From: a virus
Strand: one strand, 5' to 3'
Virus genome (UHGV): UHGV-0122704
Length of the DNA: 43,652 nucleotides
In this document: positions 1 through 37,445 of the stretch, piece by piece
Layout: each line of letters begins with the position of its first letter
How positions within the stretch are numbered: the first letter of the stretch is position 1
The notes under the pieces: generated by a model
The model's database searches: none
What the model saw: the letters and a program-made list of their open reading frames with translations, nothing else
What the model was told of the DNA's origin: nothing
Translations under genes and position numbers: made by a program

Positions 1-686
1 TCCCTATCTATAGGGAGTGCCTAGCTTATGACAACGTACGCTCTGGCTTTAACTGTTCGTACGGTGGTGGCTACGTTTATGACTGCGAGGCTCACGGTAG
101 CCAGAATGGTGTGCGAATCAACGGGGGCCGTGTTAAAGGCGGTCGGTACACGCGCAACTCCAGCTCTCACATCTTCGTCACTAAGGATGTGGCTGAGACA
201 GCGCAGACATCCCTGGAGATTGATGACGTGAGCATGCGCTACGACGGTACCGGAAGAGCTGTGTACTTCCACGGGACTATGGGCATTAACCCTACCATGG
301 TATCTATGTCCAATAATGACATGACCGGTCACGGTGTGTCTTGGGCATTACTGAGTGGTTATACTGTGCAGCCTACGCCTCCGCGCATGTCCAGGAACTT
401 ACTGGACGACACAAGCATTCGCGGAGTGGCAACACTGGTTGCGGGTGAGGCTACGGTCAACGCTCGTGTACGCGGAAACTTTGGCAGCGTAGCTAACTCC
501 TTCAAGTGGGTGTCTGAGGTCAAGTTGACGCGGTTAACCTTTCCTTCTAGTGCTGGGGCCTTGACGGTTACTGGCGTAGCACAGAACCAGGATGTACCTA
601 CACCTAATCCGGACCTAAACAGCTTCGTGATTAGGAGTAGTAACGCAGCGGATGTATCCCAGGTAGCCTGGGAGGTGTATCTCTAA
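1..686 (+). CDS. Tailspike / putative capsule depolymerase, C-terminal part (5'-truncated by window start; probable continuation of 42383..43652)
   Basis: Frame with codons at 3,6,9... is open from base 3 to the TAA at 684..686. It is in phase with the ORF truncated at 43652 if the window ends are joined. Gly/Ser/Thr/Asn/Val-rich sequence typical of beta-helix tailspikes. Confidence 0.6.
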   Translation, partial: PIYRECLAYDNVRSGFNCSYGGGYVYDCEAHGSQNGVRINGGRVKGGRYTRNSSSHIFVTKDVAETAQTSLEIDDVSMRYDGTGRAVYFHGTMGINPTMVSMSNNDMTGHGVSWALLSGYTVQPTPPRMSRNLLDDTSIRGVATLVAGEATVNARVRGNFGSVANSFKWVSEVKLTRLTFPSSAGALTVTGVAQNQDVPTPNPDLNSFVIRSSNAADVSQVAWEVYL

Positions 687-782
687 GTAGCTCCCTGGGG
701 TATCTCTATGGTATCCCGGGGCACTACTTGGGGTGCACGTCTATACCTGGACCTGAAATTTATTAGACTTTAAAATGAGGAT

Positions 783-1244
783 ATGTCTATGAACATCAAA
801 TATGACACAACATCCCCTAGCTGCTTGGTGTGGCTCAAGGGTAGGCGCGCCGGTGCTCCAGCGGGTACCCGCAACACTCGTGGCTACTGGGTGGTACAGG
901 TATCTGGTAGAAAGATACAGGCACACCGCCTCATCTGGGAACTACACAACGGGCCTATTCCAGACGGATATGTGGTGGACCACATCAACCAAAACCCCGG
1001 TGACAACAGATTAGAGAACCTGCGCTTAGCTACGGTTAGCGAAAACAACTGTAACGCACGCAGGTCTAAGCGGGAACATCCTAGGGGTGTATACTACACT
1101 GGCACCTGCTGGCGCGGGGAGTTCTGGAAGGACGGTAAGCGTTACATGAAGAAGCACAGCTCCTACGAAGTTATCTGCAAGTGGGTACTAGAGAAACGTC
1201 AAGAGCAACACAAGGCCTTCACCCCGGGGCAGGTGTATATCTGA
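783..1244 (+). CDS. HNH homing endonuclease (HNH_3-type with AP2-like C-terminal domain)
   Basis: ATG 783 preceded by GAGGA. Motif HRLIWELHNGPIPDGYVVDHINQNPGDNRLENLRLATVSENN is a textbook phage HNH_3 signature; C-terminal GVYYTGTCWRGEFWKDGKRY resembles an AP2 DNA-binding domain. Confidence 0.85.
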   Translation: MSMNIKYDTTSPSCLVWLKGRRAGAPAGTRNTRGYWVVQVSGRKIQAHRLIWELHNGPIPDGYVVDHINQNPGDNRLENLRLATVSENNCNARRSKREHPRGVYYTGTCWRGEFWKDGKRYMKKHSSYEVICKWVLEKRQEQHKAFTPGQVYI

Positions 1245-1605
1245 AACCAAAAATTATTATACTCGCCCTTGAGCCTCCCTCACCCTCAACGACGCCAATT
1301 GCCCCCATAGGGGGTGCCTAGCGCATAAAAGGAGGGGTGGGGTGGGTGCCTAGACGTCTAGACGGCCCTAGGGCGCTCTCTGAGGTGTGGAGCGCCACGG
1401 CAGCTAAGACCGTGGCTATAGCGGAAGCCTCAGAGGGCCTCAGTGGCTCCCTGCGCTGCGCTGGGGCTATCGCTAGTGCTGCCCCACGGCTTGGCCTGTG
1501 CGTGGCACTGAGTGGCTCCTGTGCGCTCTACGGGGCACTAGGGGCTATCCCTGTGCGCTCCCTGTGGGCCGTAGGGGTGCGCTCTGCCTTGCTTATTTTG
1601 CGCGT

Positions 1606-1662: not shown

Positions 1663-1858
1663 GCTGTAGTGCGTCACGGTGCTATCCCTAGTATGCACTA
1701 GGCTATCCACTGGCTATCCCTAGTGCTTTACATTGTGCCGATTATATGCTACGCTGCGCGCTCCCCACTAGGGCGCACATCCTCACCCAACACTATCCCG
1801 GCGCTATCTCTTTGCTATCCCCTTGCTCTTACTTTCATTCGAAAGCTGTCATGAAATG

Positions 1859-1875
1859 ATGTTACAGGAGTAGGA
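1859..1875 (+). promoter_or_regulatory. Copy A of conserved motif ATGTTACAGGAGTAGGA (17-mer core)
   Basis: Exact 17-mer also present at 22584..22600 and 34492..34508; lies in the non-coding terminal region about 190 bp upstream of HNH gene 2067. Confidence 0.6.
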
Positions 1876-6994: not shown

Positions 6995-8055
6995 TGTTCT
7001 TGAATCCGCACGGGATTGATATGCAGCTGCTCTTGCAGATACTGCAAACGCACCGGCCTAGCTGGGGTAGCACTAAGTGGTTCGAGCCGCTGCTTATGCA
7101 GTCGCTACAGGCGCTGGGTAGTGGTATGCACTACGTAAAGGACAAGCACGGGAACTACTTCGTGCTGGTGGGGGACTCAGAGCAAAGTGACGTAGCGTTT
7201 ACGTCTCATCTCGACACAGTGGCACGACCAACCAGCGCTGCGCCGGACGTCGGCTGCACTAACAAGGGCGTGCTGTTCGTAAAGAATCCGCAACAAGCTG
7301 ACTGCTTGGGCGCCGACTGCGGCGCCGGTATCTACCTGATGCTGGAGATGCTGCGGCGCGGCGTGCACGGACGCTACTGCTTCTTCGTGGATGAAGAGGT
7401 AGGCTGCGAGGGTAGCGCTGCATCGGTCAAGGATGACTCTGGATTTTGGACTGGGGTCAAGGCGATGATTAGCTTCGACCGCCGCGGCGACGGTATCATT
7501 ACGCATCAAAGGTATATGCGCTGCTGCTCTGACACCTTTGCCAAGACCCTAGCAGAGCGCCTGGGACGCACGGAGCAGCACTTGCAGAAGGGTGTTTATA
7601 CTGACTCGGCTGAGTTCGTTGGCATCATTCCTGAGTGCACCAACGTCGGTGTAGGGTACATGCACGAGCACACCCCGGATGAGGTGCTGGACCTGAACAT
7701 ACTGGGCCAGGTGCTTGAGCGGGTACTACAAGACGGCACGTTCTCGCACCTCCCTATTGAGCGGGACCCGGCAGTAGCAGAGCCAGACCTATGCCAGTGG
7801 CTCGCTGCATCGACGCTCAGTTTACGGCAGCCGTGGGATATGCCGCCGGACGAGGACCCGCAGTTACTGGCCGCGTTCCGGGAAGTATCGCAGCTTTCTA
7901 AACAACAACTGGTTAGCTGGGTACAGGAGAATCCAGAGAAGGCGGCGGAGTACATAATGGTGTTCTCCGATTACGGCTTTAAAGAAGAACTGATTGAACT
8001 AGGCACCCGAGTCGTAGAAGACTGGGGCGGATACGATAATATTGTGGAGGGTTGA
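6994..8055 (+). CDS. Putative Zn-metallopeptidase-like protein (M20/M28/M42-like ligand pattern)
   Basis: Ordered candidate metal ligands HLD (TSHLDTV), D (GADCGAG), EE (FVDEEVG), D (FDRRGDG), H (MHEHT) match the co-catalytic zinc exopeptidase pattern. Motif-level inference only. Confidence 0.5.
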   Translation: MFLNPHGIDMQLLLQILQTHRPSWGSTKWFEPLLMQSLQALGSGMHYVKDKHGNYFVLVGDSEQSDVAFTSHLDTVARPTSAAPDVGCTNKGVLFVKNPQQADCLGADCGAGIYLMLEMLRRGVHGRYCFFVDEEVGCEGSAASVKDDSGFWTGVKAMISFDRRGDGIITHQRYMRCCSDTFAKTLAERLGRTEQHLQKGVYTDSAEFVGIIPECTNVGVGYMHEHTPDEVLDLNILGQVLERVLQDGTFSHLPIERDPAVAEPDLCQWLAASTLSLRQPWDMPPDEDPQLLAAFREVSQLSKQQLVSWVQENPEKAAEYIMVFSDYGFKEELIELGTRVVEDWGGYDNIVEG

Positions 8056-8504: not shown

Positions 8505-9289
8505 TGGACCAGCCCTGGCTTAGAGCGTGCAAGCGCCTGGCCGTTGGGCAGAGGGCGCGCTTTCGGTGCTGCGGCAGGGACGCCGCCGGGGTGCTCTACA
8601 ATAACCCGGATGCCTGGGAATATTATTGCCACCGCTGCAAACAGGTGGGCAAGGAGCACAAGCAGTACCAGCGCATACAGTTACAGGAAGAGCCGAGGGT
8701 GCAGCCCGCTGCACCTGCAGATGCAATTTGCATTAGCCAAGCGCCTGCGGAAACGCAGAGTTTTATTTACGGATTCCTGACCACAAAGGGAATCATGCCT
8801 GAAATGGTGGAGGATGCAGAATGGAGCAAAGAGAAACAGCGGATAATCTTCCGTGTCGGAAGCGCTGCTCTGGGCCGTGCAGTGCATGCTCGGCAGCAAC
8901 CGAAGTGGGTAATGTACGGCCAGCCAATAGCTTTCGCTGTCGCGGCACCTGCCGTAGCACCGGCTGTAGCTGCGGCCGCGCCTCTAAAGGTCGTGCTCAC
9001 CGAGGACTTACTCTCAGCCCGGAAGATACAGCACGCAGTTACGAGTTACAGTGCATTGAACGTGCAGGCTATAGCTATGCTGGGTACACGCTTGCCCACG
9101 CCGCTGAGGGCTTGGCTGATTCAGAATCGCCCGGAAGTGATTCTGATGCTGGATAATGACCCGGCTGGACATGCTGGGGTAGCAGCGGCGCGCCGAGCAC
9201 TGCGTCCGTTCATGCAGTGCCGTGAGCATTACTTCGCTGCGGACCCGAAGGATGCAGAAATCAAAGAGATTCTGGAGGCTTTACAATGA
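8504..9289 (+). CDS. DNA primase (zinc-ribbon + TOPRIM)
   Basis: N-terminal Cys cluster RFRCCGRD...YYCHRCKQ; TOPRIM-like VILMLDNDPAGHAG with an upstream acidic residue; sits directly before the helicase. Confidence 0.8.
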   Translation: MDQPWLRACKRLAVGQRARFRCCGRDAAGVLYNNPDAWEYYCHRCKQVGKEHKQYQRIQLQEEPRVQPAAPADAICISQAPAETQSFIYGFLTTKGIMPEMVEDAEWSKEKQRIIFRVGSAALGRAVHARQQPKWVMYGQPIAFAVAAPAVAPAVAAAAPLKVVLTEDLLSARKIQHAVTSYSALNVQAIAMLGTRLPTPLRAWLIQNRPEVILMLDNDPAGHAGVAAARRALRPFMQCREHYFAADPKDAEIKEILEALQ

Positions 9290-13595: not shown

Positions 13596-13717
13596 TGATA
13601 GGTGGACCCTTGGGTGGTGTAGGGGGTTAGGGTAGCATGGAAATACACTGGGGTCAACTAAATAATTAAATAAAATTATTTGTTGACTCTAGCTTGATTC
13701 TGTGATTCACAGAGAAT

Positions 13718-13736
13718 TAATGTGATACGAGTAGGA
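13718..13736 (+). promoter_or_regulatory. Degenerate copy D of the conserved 19-bp motif (TAATGTgatacGAGTAGGA)
   Basis: Shares the 5' block TAATGT and 3' block GAGTAGGA at the same spacing as the three exact copies; about 20 nt upstream of HNH gene 13757 in an AT-rich intergenic region that also holds a TTGACT -35-like hexamer (13683..13688). Confidence 0.45.
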
Positions 13737-13756: not shown

Positions 13757-14191
13757 ATGTCGATGTGTATTGACCACGGGTATAACAAATGCCTTAACAA
13801 GAACGGATACCGCCGGGCATGGTATAAGCCGACCAGGCGATTGGAGCTGCTGCATCGGGTGGTGTATGCTGAGCATAACGGGCTGGATATAAGGGCGCTG
13901 GCTGGCCTGTCTGTTAGACATACCTGCGATAACCCCAGGTGCATTAACCCTAAGCACTTAGTATTGGGAACGCATATGGATAATATGCGGGACCGTGCAG
14001 AGCGCGGAAGGAACCCAGATGTGCGTGGGGATAGGAACCCAAAAGCGCAGTTAACTTGGGATGCTGTGCAGGATATCAGGGATAACTATATCCCATACAA
14101 GAAAGGTATGCGGCAACACTTTGCTAATAAGTACGGTGTAGGTGTACATGTAATTAGTGACGTAATAAGTAACAGGAGCTGGAATGCCTAA
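13757..14191 (+). CDS. HNH homing endonuclease (HNH_3-type)
   Basis: LHRVVYAEHNG...HTCDNPRCINPKHLVLGTHMDNMRD; RBS AAGAGGA. Confidence 0.85.
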   Translation: MSMCIDHGYNKCLNKNGYRRAWYKPTRRLELLHRVVYAEHNGLDIRALAGLSVRHTCDNPRCINPKHLVLGTHMDNMRDRAERGRNPDVRGDRNPKAQLTWDAVQDIRDNYIPYKKGMRQHFANKYGVGVHVISDVISNRSWNA

Positions 14192-19965: not shown

Positions 19966-20106
19966 GTGGTGCCACGGGATGTGGCAGAAAGCAGTAGAGC
20001 GGGGAGACGAACGCGCCGCTAAAGACTACCTGGAGATGTACAATCTCTGGGTAAGTCGCAATCAGTAGTTAGAAGTACCGGACATAACCAAGGAGACTAA
20101 GCGCCT

Positions 20107-22575
20107 ATGATTAGCGCCCTGAATACGGTTGTAGTACCAGAGGAAGCACTGGTGAAACGCCAGCTGGAGCTTGAAGAGACCTATAAGATTCGCGGAATCG
20201 AGCGGGCACGTAAGCTGATTACGGACGCATTGCAGAACGGTGGGATTATGAACCTGCCGATGACGCAGCGTATGCTCACCTCGGCATATGAGGTGGCCGC
20301 CGCCGCTATCGATGAGATGCGAAATGTAAAAGCCCCGGGCATTGGCGGTAAGTACCGCCGGTTCCTGCGCTTAGTCCCCTTGGATGTCCTGACCACCCTG
20401 AGCCTATGCACAATGTTTGAGGCATTTAGCGTAGCTCCTGGCGAGTCCGCTAGCCGCCGCCAGACTGCACAGGCGGTAATGTCCGCGCTGGGCCGGAACG
20501 TACAATCGGAACTGCTGGCCCTGCAGTTACGCAACGTGGCTCCGGCGTACATGGACCGTGTGTACGAGTACCTTACGGAGCGTAAGACCAAGTCTCCCAC
20601 GCACATCCTGCGTACGCTGCGGGCCAGTGCTGAGAACGTGCACTATGGGCACGAGCCATGGACCAACTCCCAGAATATCTCAGTAGGTCGGCTGCTATGT
20701 GCCGCGGTGTTTGAGACTGGCCTGTTCCAATGGAAGAACTGTAGTGGGAACCTGAGCATGCTCTACCCGGCTGACGATGTTATGGAGGCCTTCCAGAAAC
20801 TGGTAGAGTCCGCTGATACCGTAACCATGAAGCCGCCTATGCTGGTGCCACCGGTACAGCACACCACTATGTGGGATGGCGGGTACCTTACCCCCATCGA
20901 CAATCGCGGGACCTATCACAACTCGCACATCGACCGCGCGCGACTCCGTGAAGTAGCAGAAGCATTCAAGTCCGCGGACGGCATCAAAAAGGCGCTTAAT
21001 AAGGCGCAGGAAACCCCATACCGTATTAATAAGCGCATACTGGAACTGGTGCAAGAAGCACGGGCCCTGGGTATTGGGGTGGGCATGCCCCGCTCAGTAC
21101 CAGAGCCTAAACCGGAGTGGTACTTGGATGGAGTACCAAAAGAGAACTACACCGAAGAAGAACTGGACCGCTTCGGTGAGTGGAAGACGCGCATGTCCCT
21201 ATGGTACAGCGCAGACCGTAAGCGTGTGTCACAACTACGCAGCCTGTTGACCACGCTGGAAATGGCGGAGGAATTCAAAGATGAGAAAGCCCTGTACTTC
21301 CCGACTTGTGTGGACTGGCGCTACCGCCTGTACTTCAAGTCCTCGCTGCATCCCCAAGGTTCTGATTTGCAGAAAGCCCTTCTTGAATTCGGACGTGGCA
21401 AGCCTCTGGGAGAGCGCGGACTTTTCTGGCTTAAAGTGCACGTCGCCACTTGCTTTGGTTATGACAAAACCCTATTCGAAGACCGTGCAGCTTGGGTTGA
21501 TGCGAACTATGCAGAGATTGAGAGGCTCGCGGATTCTCCTCTTGATGCCCCTGCTTTTTCCTCTGCGGATAGCCCCTGGTGCCTGCTGGCCGCCGCTATC
21601 GACTTGGTTAATGCGGTTCGTTCTGGATGCCCAGAAGAGCATATTAGCCGAATCCCAGTTGCTATGGACGCTACAAACTCAGGTGGACAGCATCTCTCAG
21701 CGCTCCTGAGAGACCCTGTGGGCGGACGCTTGACGAACCTGTACTGGGAGGGTAATGATAAGAAAGCGGACCTGTACATGGACGTGAAGCGCCGTACGGA
21801 CGAGAAGGTGATACTGGACCTGGACAAGGAGGATTTCGTTATCCAGAGCACGTACTGGAGAGAGAACGAAATCACCCGCAGCATGACCAAGCGCCCTAGT
21901 ATGACCTACTTCTACAGCGCCACTGTGCGCAGCTGCAGCGACTACATCTTCGAAGGCGCTTGCGCTGAGGGGTACGAGGGTACTGAGACTAACAGTCTGT
22001 GGAACTTGTCATGCTACCTGGCTCCGCGTATGCGCACTGCTATCGAGGAGGCAAACCCAGCCGCAGCCGCAGTTATGGGGTACTTGCAGAACCTCGCTAG
22101 GCGTGTACCGGCAAGCCAGCATCTGCAGTGGTATACGCCGCTGGGTGGGCTCGTAATGAACCGCTACACGCAGCGTGAAGAAGTGCGCGTACGTATTGAC
22201 TGCATGAACCTATCAGCGGTACTGGTACACAACCGGGACTTCAAAACTTGCAACAAGCGCAAGGCAGCCTCCGGGATTGCCCCGAACTTTGTGCATAGCC
22301 TGGACAGTACGCACTTGATGATGGTGCTCTGCGCTGCGGAGGGTCTGGATATTGTGCCTATTCACGACTCGCTGGCTACTCACGCAGCTGACGTTGACGC
22401 TATGCATAGGCACATCCGTGAGCAGTTTGTGCGCCTGTATGAAGAGAATGACCTGCTTGGCGACATTACTCGCGCAGCAGCAGCAGCCGGGGCAGACTTG
22501 ACGGACCTGGACATGCCGGAAGTGGGCACTTTGGACATCCGGCAAGTGCTAGAATCCCCGTTCTTCTTCTGCTAA
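20107..22575 (+). CDS. Single-subunit DNA-dependent RNA polymerase (T7-like)
   Basis: Motif A VAMDATNSGGQHLSALLRD, motif B RSMTKRPSMTYFYSAT and motif C IHDSLATH correspond to the T7 RNAP catalytic motifs; RBS AAGGAGA. Confidence 0.95.
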   Translation: MISALNTVVVPEEALVKRQLELEETYKIRGIERARKLITDALQNGGIMNLPMTQRMLTSAYEVAAAAIDEMRNVKAPGIGGKYRRFLRLVPLDVLTTLSLCTMFEAFSVAPGESASRRQTAQAVMSALGRNVQSELLALQLRNVAPAYMDRVYEYLTERKTKSPTHILRTLRASAENVHYGHEPWTNSQNISVGRLLCAAVFETGLFQWKNCSGNLSMLYPADDVMEAFQKLVESADTVTMKPPMLVPPVQHTTMWDGGYLTPIDNRGTYHNSHIDRARLREVAEAFKSADGIKKALNKAQETPYRINKRILELVQEARALGIGVGMPRSVPEPKPEWYLDGVPKENYTEEELDRFGEWKTRMSLWYSADRKRVSQLRSLLTTLEMAEEFKDEKALYFPTCVDWRYRLYFKSSLHPQGSDLQKALLEFGRGKPLGERGLFWLKVHVATCFGYDKTLFEDRAAWVDANYAEIERLADSPLDAPAFSSADSPWCLLAAAIDLVNAVRSGCPEEHISRIPVAMDATNSGGQHLSALLRDPVGGRLTNLYWEGNDKKADLYMDVKRRTDEKVILDLDKEDFVIQSTYWRENEITRSMTKRPSMTYFYSATVRSCSDYIFEGACAEGYEGTETNSLWNLSCYLAPRMRTAIEEANPAAAAVMGYLQNLARRVPASQHLQWYTPLGGLVMNRYTQREEVRVRIDCMNLSAVLVHNRDFKTCNKRKAASGIAPNFVHSLDSTHLMMVLCAAEGLDIVPIHDSLATHAADVDAMHRHIREQFVRLYEENDLLGDITRAAAAAGADLTDLDMPEVGTLDIRQVLESPFFFC

Positions 22576-22581
22576 AAAATT

Positions 22582-22600
22582 TAATGTTACAGGAGTAGGA
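22582..22600 (+). promoter_or_regulatory. Copy B of conserved 19-bp motif TAATGTTACAGGAGTAGGA, abutting the start codon of gene 22601
   Basis: Exact 19-mer shared with 34490..34508 and 17-mer shared with 1859..1875. Sits between RNAP and the first late gene; its AGGAG doubles as the RBS. Confidence 0.6.
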
Positions 22601-23041
22601 ATGAAGTTAAAACACACTAGTAAAACTTCCGACTACACTCTCAGAGTTCTGTATAAGTCTGACGACATTACGGACGCAGTGAAGCAACTGCATGAACTGG
22701 GCCACGGCATTAGTCGGGGCCTGGCTCCAGAGCAGCACTACTGGAGGGTGCTGGGAAGTATACTGGGTAAACAGTATATACTAGGGGTCTATGACTCCCA
22801 AGGCGACTTAGTCGGTGCTGTCAGCTACTACCCAGAGGCTGTAGAGGACTGTCATTACGTAGAGCCTGTGCTGTATACAGACTTCTTCGTATTGAAACCG
22901 GACAACGGCGCGGCAGTGTCTGTGATTATGCAAGGCCTGCGCGCAATAGCCAAATGCATGCGCGCTGGGCGTATAGCCATTAGCCGGAGTACATCGGATA
23001 ACACGTACAAGACAACTTATCATTTAGTGAGGTCAGAATGA
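22601..23041 (+). CDS. Hypothetical protein (146 aa)
   Basis: First ORF after RNAP, immediately downstream of motif copy B. Confidence 0.6.
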   Translation: MKLKHTSKTSDYTLRVLYKSDDITDAVKQLHELGHGISRGLAPEQHYWRVLGSILGKQYILGVYDSQGDLVGAVSYYPEAVEDCHYVEPVLYTDFFVLKPDNGAAVSVIMQGLRAIAKCMRAGRIAISRSTSDNTYKTTYHLVRSE

Positions 23042-23304
23042 GTGGTGGTAATTTAGGTAAGCTGTTAGGTAAGGCCACGGACATGCTCGGCCTTACTGAC
23101 AACGCAGGATTAGAGGCGCAGCAGCGCTTGGCAGAGCAGCAGGCCAGTGCAGCTAAACAACAGGCTGCCTTAGAGGCTAATAGCGCCGCAGATAACATTG
23201 CTGAGATTGACCCCGCAGGGGCTGCCTCTGAATCTGCAGATGCAATTACGTCTGAGCAGAAGAAACGGCGACAAGCAGGGCAGAGCAATCCTCTGGGCCT
23301 GTAA
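23038..23304 (+). CDS. Hypothetical protein (88 aa), Ala/Gln-rich; possible virion-associated protein
   Basis: ATGA overlap with the upstream gene; lies just before the portal gene. Confidence 0.5.
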   Translation: MSGGNLGKLLGKATDMLGLTDNAGLEAQQRLAEQQASAAKQQAALEANSAADNIAEIDPAGAASESADAITSEQKKRRQAGQSNPLGL

Positions 23305-23313
23305 GGGGGTAGC

Positions 23314-24909
23314 TTGGAACAAAAAGCAACATTAGCAGAACTCTTTAAGAAGGACCAGGACGCAGGTGTATTGGATGCCTCCGAGAAGTTCGCGCAGTGG
23401 ACGCTCAGCACTATCTTTACCCGGGACGATTCCCTGGACGGTAGACGCAGACCGCTAGAGCGTGACTACCAGAGCACCGGCGCGCAGCTGGTCAACACTG
23501 CAGCCACTAAGATTGTAGGGGCACTGTTCCCTCAGGGCACTAGCTTCTTCCGGTTCTCCAAGAGTTCGGACCTGGACGAGTTCATTAGTTCGCTGGGCAG
23601 TGCAGCTACGGCAGAATCTAAGCTGGCTGAGGTTGAGAACACAGCGTCACAGAAAGTATTTGAGAAAGACGGTTATGCTGCGAAGTTGCAAGCTGTGAAG
23701 CTGCTGCTGGTTACAGGTAACGCGTTGGAGTATATTGATGAGCGGACAGGTAAATCCATCGTCTACTCAGTTCGTAACTTTACCGTTCGAAGGGATGGCA
23801 GCGGGAACGTCCTGCGACTCATTATCAGAGAGCGCACAAGCGTCCAGGACCTGCCAGAGGATTTCCAGAACACCTTCTACCGTGACAAAGACCCATACGG
23901 CGACGTTGATATCTACACTGCCGCTTGTCGCAAAGTTAAGCGGACAGAGGAAGGCGTAGAGGTAGTAAGCTACGAGGTGTATCAAGAAGCCGATGGACAC
24001 CGTATCGGGGACAGCAGCACCTATCCGGAGCTGGAGCTCCCCTACAACGTGCTGGTGTGGAACCTTGTTAGTGGCGAGCACTACGGGCGCGGCTTGGTAG
24101 AGGACTACGCTGGGGACTTTGCCCGATTATCGGTACTGTCGGAAGCACTGACTAACTACGAGGTCGAAGCCTCTCGGCTGATTCCACTAGTAGATTCTAG
24201 TTCTGGCCTGGATGTGGACGAGTTCTCTACGGCGGAGACCGGGGAGGCCGTGCAGGTGGGCGGCGGTGGTTCCAACGGAAACACTAAGTCTCCTGTCACT
24301 GCTTACGAGGGCGGCTCTGCCCAGAAGATTCAGTGGATTGCCAGCAACATCCAGATGCTCGAACAGAAACTGTCTCGTGCGTTTATGTACACCGGCAACT
24401 CCCGGCAGGGTGAGCGTGTCACGGCTTATGAGATTCGCCAGAACGCCAAAGAGGCGGAAGCCGCTATGGGTGGTGGGTTCAGTATCCTGAGCGACACCTG
24501 GCTGCGTAAGCTGGCGTACCTGTACACTGCACTGGTGTACCCTCGCTTTAAGTTGTACCTCAGCGAAGGCGTGGTGAGCATCAACGTTACAGTAGGTACC
24601 TCTGCGCTGGCTAAGGCCGCAGCAGCGGACAAGCTGTTAGAGGCGGCACAGTCCATGCAGCTGGCTATCCCGGTGCTTGAGCAGATTACTCCGCGCTTCA
24701 ACAAGGATGCGTGTGTAGACTGGTACTTCGACGCCTATGGTATCGTCAGCGAGCCGTTCATGTACACCGAAGAGCAGCTGCAGCAGAAGCAACAGGTTCA
24801 AGATGCGTCTGCCGATGTATCCGCAGGTGCAGCACAGGACCAACTCCAGGGCTTGACAGCAGCGGACCCGACAGTAGCAGGTAAGCAGCTGGGCTTATTA
24901 CCAAGTTAA
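23314..24909 (+). CDS. Portal (head-tail connector) protein
   Basis: LLLVTGNALEYID, RDGSGNVLRLIIRE, LPEDF and GNSRQGERVTAYEIR...GGGFSILS parallel T7 gp8 blocks. Only possible start is TTG 23314 after the in-frame stop at 23302..23304. Confidence 0.9.
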   Translation: MEQKATLAELFKKDQDAGVLDASEKFAQWTLSTIFTRDDSLDGRRRPLERDYQSTGAQLVNTAATKIVGALFPQGTSFFRFSKSSDLDEFISSLGSAATAESKLAEVENTASQKVFEKDGYAAKLQAVKLLLVTGNALEYIDERTGKSIVYSVRNFTVRRDGSGNVLRLIIRERTSVQDLPEDFQNTFYRDKDPYGDVDIYTAACRKVKRTEEGVEVVSYEVYQEADGHRIGDSSTYPELELPYNVLVWNLVSGEHYGRGLVEDYAGDFARLSVLSEALTNYEVEASRLIPLVDSSSGLDVDEFSTAETGEAVQVGGGGSNGNTKSPVTAYEGGSAQKIQWIASNIQMLEQKLSRAFMYTGNSRQGERVTAYEIRQNAKEAEAAMGGGFSILSDTWLRKLAYLYTALVYPRFKLYLSEGVVSINVTVGTSALAKAAAADKLLEAAQSMQLAIPVLEQITPRFNKDACVDWYFDAYGIVSEPFMYTEEQLQQKQQVQDASADVSAGAAQDQLQGLTAADPTVAGKQLGLLPS

Positions 24910-33696: not shown

Positions 33697-33746
33697 CTAG
33701 AGGCCCTCCGGGGCCTCCCCTTATCAAAATTCTTTTAGGAGATATT

Positions 33747-36700
33747 ATGGCTCAGTTTCTGAACCAAGAACCGAATCCACAGGAAAAGGATTCTGCTAAG
33801 GGCGCAACACTTAAACCTGCGCCTGAGCGCGTAGATTGGAACGATGCCGGAGACAACGGCTTAAACGCACTGGAGCGTGCCTCCTTACTGGCGCAGGCCA
33901 AGACCCCAGCTACTACAGCCGGGGAGAGCTTTGCGTCTGGTATGGGTAACAGCATCATCGCCGCAGCTATCCGTAAGGCCTCTGCCCCGGCATTTGACCG
34001 GGACCAGAACTTTAACGCCAAGCAGACTCTGAGCAGCGATACCAGGGCTAAGCTGTATGCTCCGAATCAGGAAGAGATTGAGTACCTGCACGACTCTGTA
34101 TCGGTCGAGGATTACAACTACCGCATGCAGCAGATGCTTGAGCAACGCAACCGTGACCGCTTAATGGCTGACAACACGGTAGCCGGGTTCGCGGGTATGT
34201 TGGTGGGTGATTCTCCGTTCATCCTGGCCCCGATGTCTGCCGCTGGTATTGCTGGCCGCGCAGGCTTAGCTGCACGGACTGCTATCCGCGCTGCTGACGT
34301 AGGCTCCGCATTCTATGCGCAGGACCAACTGGGCCAGTCTGCTGCGGTAACTGCACTGGTAGCGGGCGTAGCTGGGTTGGACCAGCTCTGGGATATGTCT
34401 AGGGCTGCTAAAGCTGCTGCTAAGGCTCGTACTGGGCGTGAGCCTATGTTCGACCCAGAAGCGCCTACAACTCGTACAGCGAGGGACGCTAATGTTACAG
34501 GAGTAGGAGAGGGAGAGGAAATCCTTACTAAGACACTGGATGAAAGCATCCAAGTATCTAGAAACAATACCGCCTCCGTGAACATGAAAGCACAGCACGT
34601 AGTTCAGTTCTTGAAGAAGTCCGAACACTTAACAGCAGGCCAGAAGGCTATTCTGGACACGCTGGGCGATGCTGTAAATGACATTGATTTTAAACTGGTA
34701 GCAGGCTCCGCAAACCGCAGCCGCTACACTTACGCACAGCAAGATTTAGCTAAGCGTGGAGAGGTGTCTCTACGCGCACCTAAGCGAGCTAATGGCAGCA
34801 CATGGACTACAGCAGGGGACGCACTGCGTGCTATGGATGCAGACACAAGCAGGGTAGCCGTGCACGAACTGATTCATGCCGCCACTGCGCGCGCCGTTGA
34901 CAGTAACCCAGAGATTGCTAAGCGCCTGGATGAAGTGCGCGCTGTTATTGCAGCGGACTCCACCTTGACGCCGCGTATGCGGTATTACGCTAGTAATGTG
35001 CACGAGATGCTGGCAGGCTTAGGTGACAGCCCTGAGTGGGTTGAGCATCTGGCGCGGACGAAATCCCCAACCGGTAAGAGCATGCTCCGCCAACTGGGCG
35101 AGTACATCATGAATGCCCTGGGCATCAAGGCCAAAGGTTCTGCCTTGGAAGATGTCTTGGATGCGTACGAGGACGCCGTTAAGTGGACAGCTAAGGATTA
35201 TGCAGACCAAGCCCAGGGCTTCCGTAGTGAAGCCTTCCAGGACCTGGCGGGCAGCACTACCCTAAACGAGGCTAAGGGTGCCCAAGCTATGCTGGATGGC
35301 GCTAAGAAGAAGCTCTCTACTATGTTTGCCCTGTACGATAACATCGCTCAAGGCAATGAAGACTTGGCTAAACTGCTAGTGTCGGATGCGTCCGCAGTAG
35401 GCGGCCGTCGCCCGTCTGTAGTGGACTTCAAGCGCAACCTCACTTTGGAGATGGACGCCAGCGCTAGCGTAGTGGAAGACGCTATCCTGGGCGCGTTGAA
35501 GGATAAGGGTGTAGGTTTCTCTGAGCGCTTCTTCCATCGGAGCAAGTTCCGCGCTGAGCGGGCTGCACTGGAAGACCGCCTGAGCAAGTACCTGGATGCT
35601 GCCTACAGTGCTGATGTAAACGGCCGAGCTGTTCCCGTACCGGATGCAGAGATTGCCCCACTGGTTGACGCCTATCGCCGCTCTGGCTGGGCAGGCAAGT
35701 GGCACGAGCATATGCTCAATGCTGGTCTAGTGGATGATGGTGCGTTGGTTAAATCCGATTACTACTTCCCGCGTCAGTACAGCTACGACAAGATGCGCCA
35801 AGGTATTGCGCAGGGTAACACTCTGGACGACTACCGCGCCCTGTTCAGGTCCGCCCTGCGGGACGTGTACCCGAGCATGGAGTCAGAGGTAGTGCAGCGT
35901 GTTGCAAAGGAGATGGTTGACGGTATCTACAACGGCCGTGCAGGGCAGTCCGGCCCGATGTGGAAGCAGCTGATTAACGGCATGGGTAACGACGAGGTCG
36001 TTATGGCTATGCGTAGCGCTGGTGTAGATGAATCTGCAATCCAGAGTTTCCTGGCTGGTAACGTACGCGAATCCGGTAGCACATCCCCTGCGCGGAACCT
36101 GCGTCAGCGTACTCGGTTCAACATGGACAAAGAGTATCTGGTGAACGGTAAGAGCATGCGCATGCAGGACCTGATGGATACTGATGTAGCCAAGGTTATG
36201 CACGGGTACACTAACCGTATGTCTGGGCGTGTAGGCATGGCCTATGCAGGCGTACAGGACCTGGGCCAGCTAGCTAAGATGATTGATGAGTCTAAGCACG
36301 CACTGGCGGATTCCGCTAAGTGGGAGAAGACAGTCAATGACACCATCGACTTTATCCTGGGTGGGGCGCCTGCTGACGCCGGACAGCTTCCGGATTTGCT
36401 GCGTGCAGCCGGGAACATGGCTAACGCCACCATGCTTAAGAACTCCGGCCTGTATCAGCTGACTGACACTGCCCTGGCTATGAAGGAGTTCGGTATGGCT
36501 AGAGTGCTGCGTAGTATGCGTGACCAGCCTTGGTTCAAGGAAGGTGCCGTAGCTATCAAGACTCCGGATATGGCTACCCGTCTAGACACTGTACTGCGAG
36601 GTAATATCCAGAAGGAGATGCGCTTCCGCTGGTTGAATACGTACGCCGACGATAACCTGGACCTGACCCGTCAGGCCTCTTGGTTCAATGTAACCCAGAA

Positions 36701-37445
36701 CGTTGGGCAGGCTGCGCGTCACGTCAACGGTATGAGCATGGTGCACCGGCTGCAGGTTAACCTGAACTCCGGCATTGTGGCGGATGAGCTTACCCAGATG
36801 TTCAAGGGTGATGCTGCGGCGTTTAAGCGTCTGGAGCGTTTCGGGCTTACCCGCGACGTTGCTGACCGTGCCATCGCTGCCAACAAAGCCAACCCGGGCG
36901 CCATGTTCCAGCCGGACCTGCAAATGCAAGTTGAGGTTGTAGGGACGCGTATGATGGACTACCTGGTACAGCAGGTTCGTACTGGAGAGACCTCACACTT
37001 TGCACAGTTCAACCCTATCGGCAAAGTCATTGTAGGGTACCAGAGCTTCGCACTGGCCGCCACTAACAAGATTCTGCGTAGGGAGCTGAGCGACGCTGGG
37101 TGGATTGGCGTAGCCCATATTATGGCGTATCAATTCCCGCTGATGCTACTGGCTACTATGGCTAAGCACGGTATGGATGGGAAGGACGTAGACACCCAGA
37201 AACTCATCGGTGAGTCCGTGATGGGTATGAGTGCCATTGGCGGTGTATCCTTACTACAGGATATCTTCCTGGGGGATTCTCCCCGTCACTCATTGGCATC
37301 TATGGGTTACGTCACAGGACTACTTGGGGCTGTGCAGGACCTGGCTACCGGTAATATGGATATCAAGACCTTCACTAAGCAGGTGCCGTTAATCCAGGAA
37401 TTCGCACCTACGCGAGCTATCATCAATAACTTCGGAGACGATTAA
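33747..37445 (+). CDS. Internal virion (core / ejectosome) protein, gp16-like
   Basis: 1232 aa, the largest ORF, at the position of T7 gp16; RBS AGGAG. Confidence 0.75.
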   Translation: MAQFLNQEPNPQEKDSAKGATLKPAPERVDWNDAGDNGLNALERASLLAQAKTPATTAGESFASGMGNSIIAAAIRKASAPAFDRDQNFNAKQTLSSDTRAKLYAPNQEEIEYLHDSVSVEDYNYRMQQMLEQRNRDRLMADNTVAGFAGMLVGDSPFILAPMSAAGIAGRAGLAARTAIRAADVGSAFYAQDQLGQSAAVTALVAGVAGLDQLWDMSRAAKAAAKARTGREPMFDPEAPTTRTARDANVTGVGEGEEILTKTLDESIQVSRNNTASVNMKAQHVVQFLKKSEHLTAGQKAILDTLGDAVNDIDFKLVAGSANRSRYTYAQQDLAKRGEVSLRAPKRANGSTWTTAGDALRAMDADTSRVAVHELIHAATARAVDSNPEIAKRLDEVRAVIAADSTLTPRMRYYASNVHEMLAGLGDSPEWVEHLARTKSPTGKSMLRQLGEYIMNALGIKAKGSALEDVLDAYEDAVKWTAKDYADQAQGFRSEAFQDLAGSTTLNEAKGAQAMLDGAKKKLSTMFALYDNIAQGNEDLAKLLVSDASAVGGRRPSVVDFKRNLTLEMDASASVVEDAILGALKDKGVGFSERFFHRSKFRAERAALEDRLSKYLDAAYSADVNGRAVPVPDAEIAPLVDAYRRSGWAGKWHEHMLNAGLVDDGALVKSDYYFPRQYSYDKMRQGIAQGNTLDDYRALFRSALRDVYPSMESEVVQRVAKEMVDGIYNGRAGQSGPMWKQLINGMGNDEVVMAMRSAGVDESAIQSFLAGNVRESGSTSPARNLRQRTRFNMDKEYLVNGKSMRMQDLMDTDVAKVMHGYTNRMSGRVGMAYAGVQDLGQLAKMIDESKHALADSAKWEKTVNDTIDFILGGAPADAGQLPDLLRAAGNMANATMLKNSGLYQLTDTALAMKEFGMARVLRSMRDQPWFKEGAVAIKTPDMATRLDTVLRGNIQKEMRFRWLNTYADDNLDLTRQASWFNVTQNVGQAARHVNGMSMVHRLQVNLNSGIVADELTQMFKGDAAAFKRLERFGLTRDVADRAIAANKANPGAMFQPDLQMQVEVVGTRMMDYLVQQVRTGETSHFAQFNPIGKVIVGYQSFALAATNKILRRELSDAGWIGVAHIMAYQFPLMLLATMAKHGMDGKDVDTQKLIGESVMGMSAIGGVSLLQDIFLGDSPRHSLASMGYVTGLLGAVQDLATGNMDIKTFTKQVPLIQEFAPTRAIINNFGDD
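34490..34508 (+). promoter_or_regulatory. Copy C of conserved 19-bp motif TAATGTTACAGGAGTAGGA, inside the gp16-like gene
   Basis: Exact 19-mer identical to 22582..22600; lies in-frame within the coding sequence (encodes ...ANVTGVGEGEE...). Confidence 0.6.

What the first reader, a model, noticed from the sequence alone, without database searches (positions are those of the whole stretch)
22582..22600. Conserved 19-bp motif TAATGTTACAGGAGTAGGA in three exact copies plus one degenerate copy: candidate phage promoter or site-specific nick site
The 17-mer ATGTTACAGGAGTAGGA occurs exactly at 1859..1875, 22584..22600 and 34492..34508; the last two share the full 19-mer. A fourth copy at 13718..13736 keeps both flanking blocks (TAATGT and GAGTAGGA) at the same spacing. 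By rough estimate, about 0.05 exact 17-mer pairs are expected by chance in 43.6 kb, so a triple is far beyond chance. The copies sit at key boundaries: the terminal non-coding region, directly before the first late gene after RNAP, upstream of an HNH endonuclease, and inside the gp16-like gene. The complementary strand reads TCCTACTCCTG. From memory and unverified, phiKMV-like Pseudomonas phages carry strand-specific nicks at a motif containing CCTACTCC; if that recollection is right, this phage may carry equivalent nick sites.
Basis: partly seen in the sequence, partly recalled or inferred. Interest (0 to 1): 0.8.

Follow-up and report, generated by a model that had tools for sequence, protein, structure and literature searches.

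The report
Known KP34-type phage RNA polymerase promoters
The repeated 19-base motif is the already characterised strong promoter of the KP34-like Klebsiella phage RNA polymerase, at the same three genome positions as in phage KP34, so it is real and functional but ordinary.

Summary
ATGTTACAGGAGTAGGA occurs exactly at 1859, 22584 and 34492, and a 3-mismatch copy lies at 13720 (0.09 matches expected by chance). The window is a Drulisvirus, a KP34-like Klebsiella podophage.

Lu et al. 2019 (PMC6834552) defined the KP34 RNA polymerase strong promoter as 5'-T(A/G)ATGTTACAGGAGTA-3', using 5'-RACE and in vitro transcription. Initiation is at the G that follows the motif. KP34 has copies at nt 475, 22197 and 33721. 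The three window copies are identical to these and lie at the orthologous positions.

Motif-independent comparison with about 60 relatives adds support:
- The intragenic copy is constrained beyond what the protein needs.
- Its one variable base (-7, A or C) always matches the -7 base of the copy after the polymerase gene.
- That base tracks three polymerase specificity-loop residues (SAxL versus TIxR).

The nick-site idea is not supported. The phiKMV core CCTACTCC is present only as the reverse complement, and the CGAC block is absent. The positions match phiKMV promoters rather than phiKMV nick sites. In the relative fHe-Kpn01, the only nick found was elsewhere.

The 13718 copy is nearly invariant across the genus and does not follow the -7 switch. 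It is probably a separate, untested promoter class. Verdict: already known, low interest.

The parts
22582..22600 (+). Strong promoter of S1 type (TAATGTTACAGGAGTA, positions -16 to -1) plus GGA (+1 to +3). The predicted start is G22598. It begins 7 nt after the RNA polymerase stop codon and directly abuts ATG 22601.
   Evidence: Identical to KP34 nt 22197-22215, where 5'-RACE put the start at nt 22213 and in vitro transcription confirmed activity. The orthologous position is shown. The site is present in all 59 evaluable IMG/VR relatives chosen through the polymerase protein, plus the window.
34490..34508 (+). Strong promoter of S1 type inside the gp16-like internal core protein gene. The predicted start is G34506.
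   Evidence: Identical to KP34 nt 33721-33739. Across 36 distinct relatives, the 19-nt window has 1 variable column against a median of 7. Six of 7 third-codon positions are invariant, against 25% outside the motif.
1857..1875 (+). Strong promoter of S2 type (TGATGTTACAGGAGTA) plus GGA, in the non-coding region near the left end. The predicted start is G1873. Its position is analogous to T7 phiOL.
   Evidence: Identical to KP34 nt 475-493. S2 was as active as S1 in vitro. The left end is mapped.
13718..13736 (+). Variant promoter-like element TAATGTGATACGAGTA+GGA, with mismatches at -10, -8 and -6. The predicted start is G13734. A conserved leader with a Shine-Dalgarno sequence follows, then ATG 13757.
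   Evidence: Present in 56 of 57 evaluable relatives: 55 are identical over all 19 nt and one has TGATGT. This holds regardless of the -7 allele of the strong promoters and of what is inserted nearby. The conserved block runs from about -18 to +19. Lu et al. 2019 did not report it. Its function is inferred, not shown.
22528..22547 (+). Homologue of the KP34 weak promoter W (ACTTTGGACATCCGGCAAGT, 1 mismatch), inside the 3' end of the polymerase gene.
   Evidence: KP34 W is ACTTTGGACATCCGTCAAGT at nt 22144-22163, and it is weakly active in vitro. The G variant is the commonest among relatives.
20107..22575 (+). Cognate single-subunit RNA polymerase (822 aa). Residues S703, A704 and L706 belong to the allele that goes with A at promoter position -7.
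   Evidence: PF00940 and PF14700. The region 20000-24000 is about 94% identical in DNA to that of other drulisviruses. Residues 703, 704 and 706 split 30:30 in perfect step with the -7 base.

Best explanation
The three exact copies are strong promoters for the phage's own T7-like single-subunit RNA polymerase. The polymerase binds the 16 bp T(A/G)ATGTTACAGGAGTA. It starts RNA at the G immediately downstream (G1873, G22598, G34506) and transcribes rightward, in the same direction as all the genes. One promoter sits near the left end, like T7 phiOL. One sits directly behind the polymerase gene and opens late transcription. One sits inside the gp16-like gene and reinforces transcription of the distal late genes. 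The copy at 13718 is most likely a weaker or differently regulated promoter for the genes after the DNA polymerase. Shown in KP34 by others: the sequence, the start site and in vitro activity. Shown here: identity, orthologous positions, DNA-level constraint, and co-variation with the polymerase. Inferred: activity in this particular phage, and any activity of the 13718 copy.
For: 1. Lu et al. 2019 (PMC6834552) defined 5'-T(A/G)ATGTTACAGGAGTA-3' as the KP34 strong promoter. They used 5'-RACE (start at nt 22213) and run-off transcription. KP34 has copies at nt 475-490, 22197-22212 and 33721-33736. The shared 14-mer alone was much weaker.
2. The window copies are identical, and their flanks align with the KP34, KP-Rio/2015 and fHe-Kpn01 copies.
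3. The window encodes the cognate polymerase.
4. Loci chosen through neighbouring proteins, independently of the motif, show the polymerase-downstream copy in all 60 evaluable genomes.
5. The intragenic copy has 1 variable column in 19 against a median of 7. Six of 7 synonymous positions are frozen, against 25% of those outside the motif.
6. The one variable base (-7, A or C) is the same at the polymerase-downstream and gp16 copies in 36 of 36 contigs that hold both. It partitions perfectly with polymerase residues 703, 704 and 706 (S,A,L versus T,I,R; 30 versus 30). By ungapped spacing from the conserved NFVH motif, these residues align with the T7 specificity loop at 757, 758 and 760 (inference from T7 knowledge).
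7. This is not simple clade structure. None of the other 716 variable columns in 1.8 kb around the gp16 copy partitions with the allele, and segments up to 99.6% identical carry different alleles.
8. phiKMV carries its LUZ19-type promoter core TATGTCAC at 20492 and 20678 (just after its polymerase gene), at 34956 (inside its gp16-like gp37) and at 727 (left end, antisense). That is the same layout.
9. A 2025 genome survey already predicted 467 KP34-like promoters in 135 genomes.
Against: No transcription data exist for this phage itself. At 22582 the predicted transcript would have only a 3-nt leader before ATG 22601, so that promoter cannot supply a Shine-Dalgarno sequence for the first downstream gene. 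The 13718 copy differs at -10, -8 and -6, the region where T7-type polymerases read specificity. It also does not follow the -7 switch, so its use by the same polymerase is uncertain. Activity of the intragenic copy in vivo has not been reported in the papers I could read.
Confidence: 0.93

Rival explanations
1. The copies are recognition sites of a phiKMV-like nickase, and packaged DNA carries single-strand breaks in the minus (template) strand within TCCTA/CTCCTG. This could hold instead of, or in addition to, promoter function.
For: The reverse complement of promoter positions -7 to +3 is CCTACTCCTG. In relatives with C at -7, such as fHe-Kpn01, it is CCTACTCCGG, which matches the phiKMV nick core 10 of 10. 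The analytic chance of such a match is roughly 2e-5 to 1e-4. There are four sites, all on one strand, as in phiKMV and LUZ19. One nick is known in a drulisvirus.
Against: In phiKMV the consensus lies on the same strand as the genes (6314, 13986, 24128). Here it lies on the opposite strand. The CGAC-N5 half of the consensus is absent at all four sites (sequences). One copy is intragenic, whereas the LUZ19 copies are described as intergenic. The positions match phiKMV promoters, not its nick sites. In fHe-Kpn01, which has the perfect 10-mer three times, PhageTerm and S1 nuclease pointed to a single nick at nt 7873, away from every copy. The co-variation with polymerase residues is explained by promoter function.
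Confidence: 0.04
2. The motif is a translation signal: the AGGAG it contains serves as a Shine-Dalgarno sequence for the downstream gene.
For: At 22582 the AGGAG lies 6 nt before ATG 22601. It could act as a ribosome-binding site on RNA that reads through from upstream.
Against: The copy at 1857 has no ORF start nearby. The copy at 34490 is in-frame coding sequence, Ala-Asn-Val-Thr-Gly-Val-Gly. A 5-nt Shine-Dalgarno sequence does not explain 16-19 invariant bases or the co-variation with the polymerase.
Confidence: 0.02
3. The copies are a chance repeat, a relic of duplication, or the footprint of a mobile element, and have no function.
For: HNH homing endonuclease genes are inserted next to two of the sites in various relatives.
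Against: Shuffles give 0.09 expected matches. The flanks of the copies are unrelated to one another. The sites are fixed at orthologous positions across about 60 genomes whether or not an HNH gene is present. Synonymous positions are frozen.
Confidence: 0.01

Closest known systems
KP34 RNA polymerase strong promoters S1 and S2 (Lu et al. 2019, Front Microbiol 10:2487, PMC6834552)
   Same: The 16-nt sequence is identical: TAATGTTACAGGAGTA twice and TGATGTTACAGGAGTA once. The +1 to +3 bases are the same GGA. The three genome positions are the same. The weak promoter W in the 3' end of the polymerase gene is also present, and the polymerase is closely related.
   Different: Nothing of substance differs. 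W has one substitution (T to G). The phage is a different drulisvirus (about 94% identical to its best database hits over 20000-24000). An HNH gene follows the 13718 element here.
LUZ19/phiKMV phage-specific promoters (5'-GgtTATGTCACacACAnnGG-3'; Putzeys et al. 2024, PMC10914365)
   Same: The upstream half is homologous (TATGTCACA versus AATGTTACA). The layout is the same: directly after the polymerase gene, inside the gp16-like gene, and near the left end.
   Different: The downstream half differs (CACAnnGG versus GGAGTAGG). The left-end copy is antisense in LUZ19 and phiKMV but sense here. phiKMV has two copies after its polymerase gene.
phiKMV-group localized nick consensus 5'-CGACNNNNNCCTA/CTCCGG-3' (Kulakov et al. 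2009, as quoted in PMC3517423, 10.1101/619015, PMC4482731 and PMC3604761)
   Same: They share the 8-10 nt core CCTACTCC(G/T)G. There are about four copies per genome, all on one strand.
   Different: The orientation relative to the genes is opposite. There is no CGAC-N5 block. One copy is intragenic. The genome positions differ. No physical nick has been reported at these sites in a drulisvirus.
T7 promoters (class III consensus, class II variants, and phiOL at the left end)
   Same: The logic is the same: a short (under 25 bp) promoter read by a single-subunit polymerase, a G start, a promoter near the left end, and specificity-loop residues that co-vary with bases around -8.
   Different: There are only 3-4 copies instead of 17-18. 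The sequence is unrelated apart from the initial TAAT. The polymerase gene lies at the end of the middle region rather than in the early region.

Membership tests
KP34-type (Drulisvirus) strong promoter for the phage single-subunit RNA polymerase | 16-nt sequence 5'-T(A/G)ATGTTACAGGAGTA-3' | tested here: met
   Exact at 1857-1872 (G at position 2), 22582-22597 and 34490-34505.
KP34-type (Drulisvirus) strong promoter for the phage single-subunit RNA polymerase | Initiating G immediately 3' of the 16-mer | tested here: met
   GGA follows all three copies and also the 13718 variant. This is a sequence-level check only. KP34 starts at nt 22213, which is the first G.
KP34-type (Drulisvirus) strong promoter for the phage single-subunit RNA polymerase | Cognate KP34-like polymerase encoded in the same genome | tested here: met
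   ORF 20107-22575 matches PF00940 (E 6.6e-90). The C-terminal 200 aa are 91-100% identical to those of Drulisvirus contigs. The KP34-type specificity-loop allele S703/A704/L706 is present.
KP34-type (Drulisvirus) strong promoter for the phage single-subunit RNA polymerase | Positions orthologous to KP34 nt 475, 22197 and 33721, in the same orientation as the genes | tested here: met
   The flanks align with KP34, KP-Rio/2015 and fHe-Kpn01 at all three sites. All copies are on the + strand, as are the genes.
KP34-type (Drulisvirus) strong promoter for the phage single-subunit RNA polymerase | Transcription actually initiates there with this phage's polymerase | not testable with these tools
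   This needs 5'-RACE, cappable-seq or in vitro transcription. It has been shown only for KP34.
phiKMV-type localized nick site | Full consensus 5'-CGAC-N5-CCTACTCCGG-3' | tested here: not met
   There are no matches on either strand in the window, KP-Rio/2015, fHe-Kpn01 or KP34. phiKMV has three. Only the core CCTACTCC(T)G is present.
phiKMV-type localized nick site | Consensus on the same strand as the gene sense strand, in intergenic DNA | tested here: not met
   In phiKMV the sites are on the + strand, as are its genes. In the window they are on the - strand. The copy at 34490 is intragenic.
phiKMV-type localized nick site | Ligatable single-strand break (3'-OH and 5'-P) in virion DNA at the motif | not testable with these tools
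   Indirect evidence only. In fHe-Kpn01, PhageTerm and S1 nuclease indicated one nick at nt 7873, not at 483, 13775, 22074 or 33614.
Weaker or middle-class promoter of the same polymerase (for the 13718 copy only) | Conserved promoter-like sequence with a G start and a downstream leader and gene, recognised by the phage polymerase | tested here: inconclusive
   The element is near-invariant in 56 of 57 relatives, and a conserved leader with a Shine-Dalgarno sequence precedes varying downstream genes. However, it has 3 mismatches at -10, -8 and -6 and does not co-vary with the polymerase allele. No transcription data exist.

The most novel reading that the evidence does not exclude
The initiation half of the Drulisvirus strong promoter (GGAGTAGG, or CCGGAGTAGG in half of the genus) is also the recognition core of a phiKMV-like nicking activity that acts on the template strand 2-3 nt upstream of the start site. 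If so, these promoters would double as low-frequency nick sites, and the unexplained phiKMV nicks would be mechanistically linked to phage promoter architecture. A more modest new reading concerns the invariant 13718 element, which has a conserved AT-rich inverted repeat upstream. It may be a separate promoter class, or a promoter coupled to a replication origin, that is read independently of the specificity-loop allele.
Probability: 0.05. Interest if true: 0.6.

Novelty: already known. Interest (0 to 1): 0.12.

Why it matters
For this window it matters little. The motif marks the phage polymerase promoters, which helps with correct annotation of transcription units and with phage engineering or in vitro transcription, but the element was defined experimentally in 2019 and surveyed across genomes in 2025.

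Two by-products may be worth a small experiment:
- The natural -7 A/C switch is coupled to polymerase residues 703, 704 and 706. This would give a ready-made orthogonal polymerase-promoter pair within one genus.
- The element after the DNA polymerase gene is near-invariant and does not co-vary with the polymerase. Nobody appears to have tested it.

Tried and rejected
1. Kulakov et al. 2009 and the LIMElight paper could not be read. The phiKMV nick consensus and its strand were therefore taken from four papers that quote it and from the phiKMV record itself. 'Non-coding strand' in those papers appears to mean the non-template strand, because the consensus as written is on the + strand of NC_005045. 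This is my reading and is not verified.
2. The supplement of the 2025 promoter survey is not held. I could not check whether the 13718 copy is among its predictions.
3. The putative promoter of Eriksson et al. 2015 (AGCCTATAGCG...) is a different motif. It gave no transcription in vitro and is not relevant to this finding.
4. KpnP polymerase comes from a T7-like Klebsiella phage, not a drulisvirus, so it is irrelevant.
5. A sigma-70 scan and an Rfam search around 13718 gave nothing that explains the element.
6. The reverse complements of the phiKMV nick sites share only the 10-mer with the KP34-type promoter, not the upstream TAATGTTAC half. They are therefore not antisense KP34-type promoters.
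7. Literature searches for Drulisvirus transcriptomics or nicks found nothing beyond fHe-Kpn01.
8. The first viral-contig scan selected loci by the motif itself. I did not use it for conservation statistics. The protein-anchored loci were used instead.

Full report
**Observation.** The 17-mer ATGTTACAGGAGTAGGA is present exactly at 1859, 22584 and 34492 on the + strand. A copy with three mismatches lies at 13720. Dinucleotide-preserving shuffles give 0.09 matches on average, and none of 100 shuffles reaches four. With the pattern TAATGT-N5-GAGTAGGA, the copies at 22582, 34490 and 13718 match fully, and 1857 reads TGATGT. An alignment of the four sites shows that only the motif is shared and the flanks are unrelated. 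The copies are therefore not part of a larger duplication.

- ORF 20107-22575 is a single-subunit RNA polymerase.
- ORF 13757-14191 is an HNH endonuclease.
- The site at 34490 lies inside the 1232-aa ORF 33747-37445, which relatives annotate as internal core protein.
- The site at 1857 is non-coding and lies about 580 nt to the right of the position that aligns with the KP34 left end.

**What the window is.** Region 20000-24000 matches about 250 phage records, nearly all Klebsiella phages of the genus Drulisvirus (KP34-like). The best hits are about 94% identical.

**What the motif is.** Lu et al. 2019 (PMC6834552) purified the KP34 RNA polymerase. They showed that the earlier bioinformatic promoter prediction of Eriksson et al. 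2015 does not support transcription. By 5'-RACE they mapped the major start to KP34 nt 22213, directly behind the polymerase gene. They defined the strong promoter as 5'-T(A/G)ATGTTACAGGAGTA-3'. KP34 carries TAATGT... at 22197-22212 and 33721-33736, and TGATGT... at 475-490. Both versions were equally active in run-off transcription, whereas the shared 14-mer alone was much weaker.

A mismatch scan of the window, KP34, KP-Rio/2015 and fHe-Kpn01 reproduces the published KP34 coordinates. It shows that the three window copies are identical to the KP34 promoters, including the GGA at +1 to +3, and that their flanks align. The predicted starts are therefore G1873, G22598 and G34506. The KP34 weak promoter W (ACTTTGGACATCCGTCAAGT, inside the 3' end of the polymerase gene) is also present, at 22528-22547, with one substitution. 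A 2025 survey had already predicted 467 KP34-like promoters in 135 genomes. The element is therefore known both experimentally and at genus scale.

**Independent support from relatives.** To avoid selecting relatives by the motif itself, I fetched IMG/VR loci through three neighbouring protein segments: gp16-like, the C-terminus of the DNA polymerase, and the C-terminus of the RNA polymerase.
- *Constraint inside the gp16-like gene.* Across 36 distinct sequences, the 19-nt motif window has one variable column against a median of seven. Only 4 of 581 windows are as low. Six of its seven third-codon positions are invariant, against 25% of third positions outside the motif. This is constraint on the DNA beyond what the protein needs.
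- *Concerted change between copies.* The single variable column is promoter position -7, which is A or C (ACA and ACC, both Thr). In all 36 contigs where both copies could be read, the -7 base is the same at the polymerase-downstream copy and at the gp16 copy: 13 are A/A, 23 are C/C and none is discordant.
- *Co-variation with the polymerase.* Among 60 polymerases, the -7 base partitions perfectly with three residues: S703/A704/L706 with A, and T703/I704/R706 with C, 30 each. Counting back without gaps from the conserved GIAPNFVH motif, these residues align with T7 positions 757, 758 and 760 in the specificity loop, which reads the -8 region of the T7 promoter. This last step is an inference from T7 structural knowledge. 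It is consistent with the two specificity-loop subgroups noted by Eriksson et al..
- *Not simple clade structure.* Of the other 716 variable columns in the 1.8 kb around the gp16 copy, none partitions with the allele. Segments up to 99.6% identical carry different alleles, and 6 of 36 sequences have a nearest neighbour with the other allele. The linkage between a base 12 kb away and the polymerase allele is thus maintained against recombination, as expected for a promoter and its polymerase.

**Comparison with phiKMV.** ONT-cappable-seq of LUZ19 defined the phiKMV-group promoter as GgtTATGTCACacACAnnGG. Two copies lie after the polymerase gene, one lies in the structural region and one is antisense at the left end. 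The authors noted the agreement with KP34. In the phiKMV record the core TATGTCAC is at 20492 and 20678 (the polymerase gene ends at 20485), at 34956 (inside gp37, the gp16-like gene) and at 727 on the minus strand. The Drulisvirus copies are therefore positional counterparts of the phiKMV promoters, and their upstream halves are similar (AATGTTACA versus TATGTCACA).

**The nick hypothesis.** phiKMV-like phages carry nicks in 5'-CGACNNNNNCCTA/CTCCGG-3', and LUZ19 has the intergenic motif CCTACTCCGG at four positions. The reverse complement of the Drulisvirus promoter from -7 to +3 is CCTACTCCTG. In the C-allele half of the genus, fHe-Kpn01 included, it is CCTACTCCGG, a 10 of 10 match. I estimate the chance of that at roughly 2e-5 to 1e-4, and I cannot explain it.

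Every other defining feature fails:
- The full consensus is absent.
- The CGAC block is missing at all four sites.
- In phiKMV the consensus is on the gene-sense strand (6314, 13986, 24128; these coincide with features once annotated as putative phage promoters). Here it is on the opposite strand.
- One copy is intragenic.
- The positions correspond to phiKMV promoters, not to its nick sites.
- The only physical data for a drulisvirus argue against it. In fHe-Kpn01, PhageTerm and S1 nuclease indicated a single nick at nt 7873, whereas its motif copies are at 483, 13775, 22074 and 33614.

Low-frequency nicks cannot be excluded in silico. I put this reading at about 4-5%.

**The fourth copy.** TAATGTGATACGAGTAGGA at 13718 differs from S1 at -10, -8 and -6. 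It is not a decaying copy:
- It is present in 56 of 57 evaluable Drulisvirus-like contigs. Fifty-five are identical over all 19 nt and one has TGATGT.
- This holds whatever is inserted between it and the DNA polymerase gene. The distance from the end of the polymerase query is 343, about 680-720, or about 800-880 nt.
- It also holds whichever of three alternative genes follows it.
- The conserved block runs from about -18 to +19 and includes a Shine-Dalgarno-like AAGAGAG. That arrangement suits a promoter with a leader.
- It keeps A at -7 in genomes whose strong promoters and polymerase have switched to the C allele. It is absent from more distant relatives.

Lu et al. do not mention it. My best guess is that it is a weaker or differently read promoter for the genes after the DNA polymerase. 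I give this about 50%. It might instead be a binding site of another kind. A conserved AT-rich inverted repeat lies about 25 nt upstream of it. Rfam and a sigma-70 scan gave nothing relevant.

**Verdict.** The nick half is not supported. Novelty: already known. Interest: low.

Noticed in passing
window 8696-8729 and 23217-23248: The one nick reported in a drulisvirus (fHe-Kpn01 nt 7873, PMC7291057) falls in CTCTGCA|CCTGCAGATGCAATT inside the primase gene, which corresponds to window position about 8713. A second copy of CTGCAGATGCAATT with similar flanks (CCTCTGAATCTGCAGATGCAATT) lies at about 23234. Both copies are conserved in KP34 and fHe-Kpn01. This may be the real Drulisvirus nick motif. 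A bare 14-mer repeat is not rare by chance in 43 kb.
   Followed up: partly
window 13648-13692: A conserved AT-rich inverted repeat (GTCAACTAAATAATT / AATTATTTGTTGAC) lies about 25 nt upstream of the 13718 promoter-like element, in the intergenic region after the DNA polymerase module. It is conserved in all 54 distinct relatives aligned. It is a candidate replication origin or protein-binding site.
   Followed up: partly
window 22598-22603: The predicted start G22598 is only 3 nt before ATG 22601, as in KP34 (start at 22213, gene 38 at 22216). RNA made from this promoter would therefore be nearly leaderless for the first late ORF. The promoter's own AGGAG could serve as a Shine-Dalgarno sequence only on read-through transcripts.
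   Followed up: no
window 20107-22575 (residues 703-706) and relatives L233-L293: Two polymerase alleles, SAxL and TIxR, split the genus 30:30. They track the promoter -7 base (A or C) perfectly, even at the copy 12 kb away and despite a mosaic background. This is a natural, possibly orthogonal, polymerase-promoter pair.
   Followed up: yes
window 13757-14191; relatives L233-L293 and L163-L221: HNH endonuclease genes and other cargo are inserted at variable places right next to the promoters. In some relatives, 355 or about 490 nt lie between the polymerase stop codon and the S1 promoter (an HNH gene in fHe-Kpn01). Three alternative genes follow the 13718 element, and in this window that gene is an HNH.
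   Followed up: partly
window 1-1344: The window is a permuted genome. KP34 nt 1-69 align to window 1277-1344. A stretch of the KP34 right end that includes the start of its right terminal repeat aligns to 1226-1344. The physical left end is therefore near 1277, and the first 1.3 kb or so belong to the right end.
   Followed up: partly
L294-L296 (IMG/VR contigs whose polymerase is 41% identical): Three distant relatives share TGATGTCACGGGTAGTGGA 130-590 nt downstream of their polymerase gene. This is probably the homologous promoter of another genus, intermediate between the KP34 and LUZ19 types.
   Followed up: no
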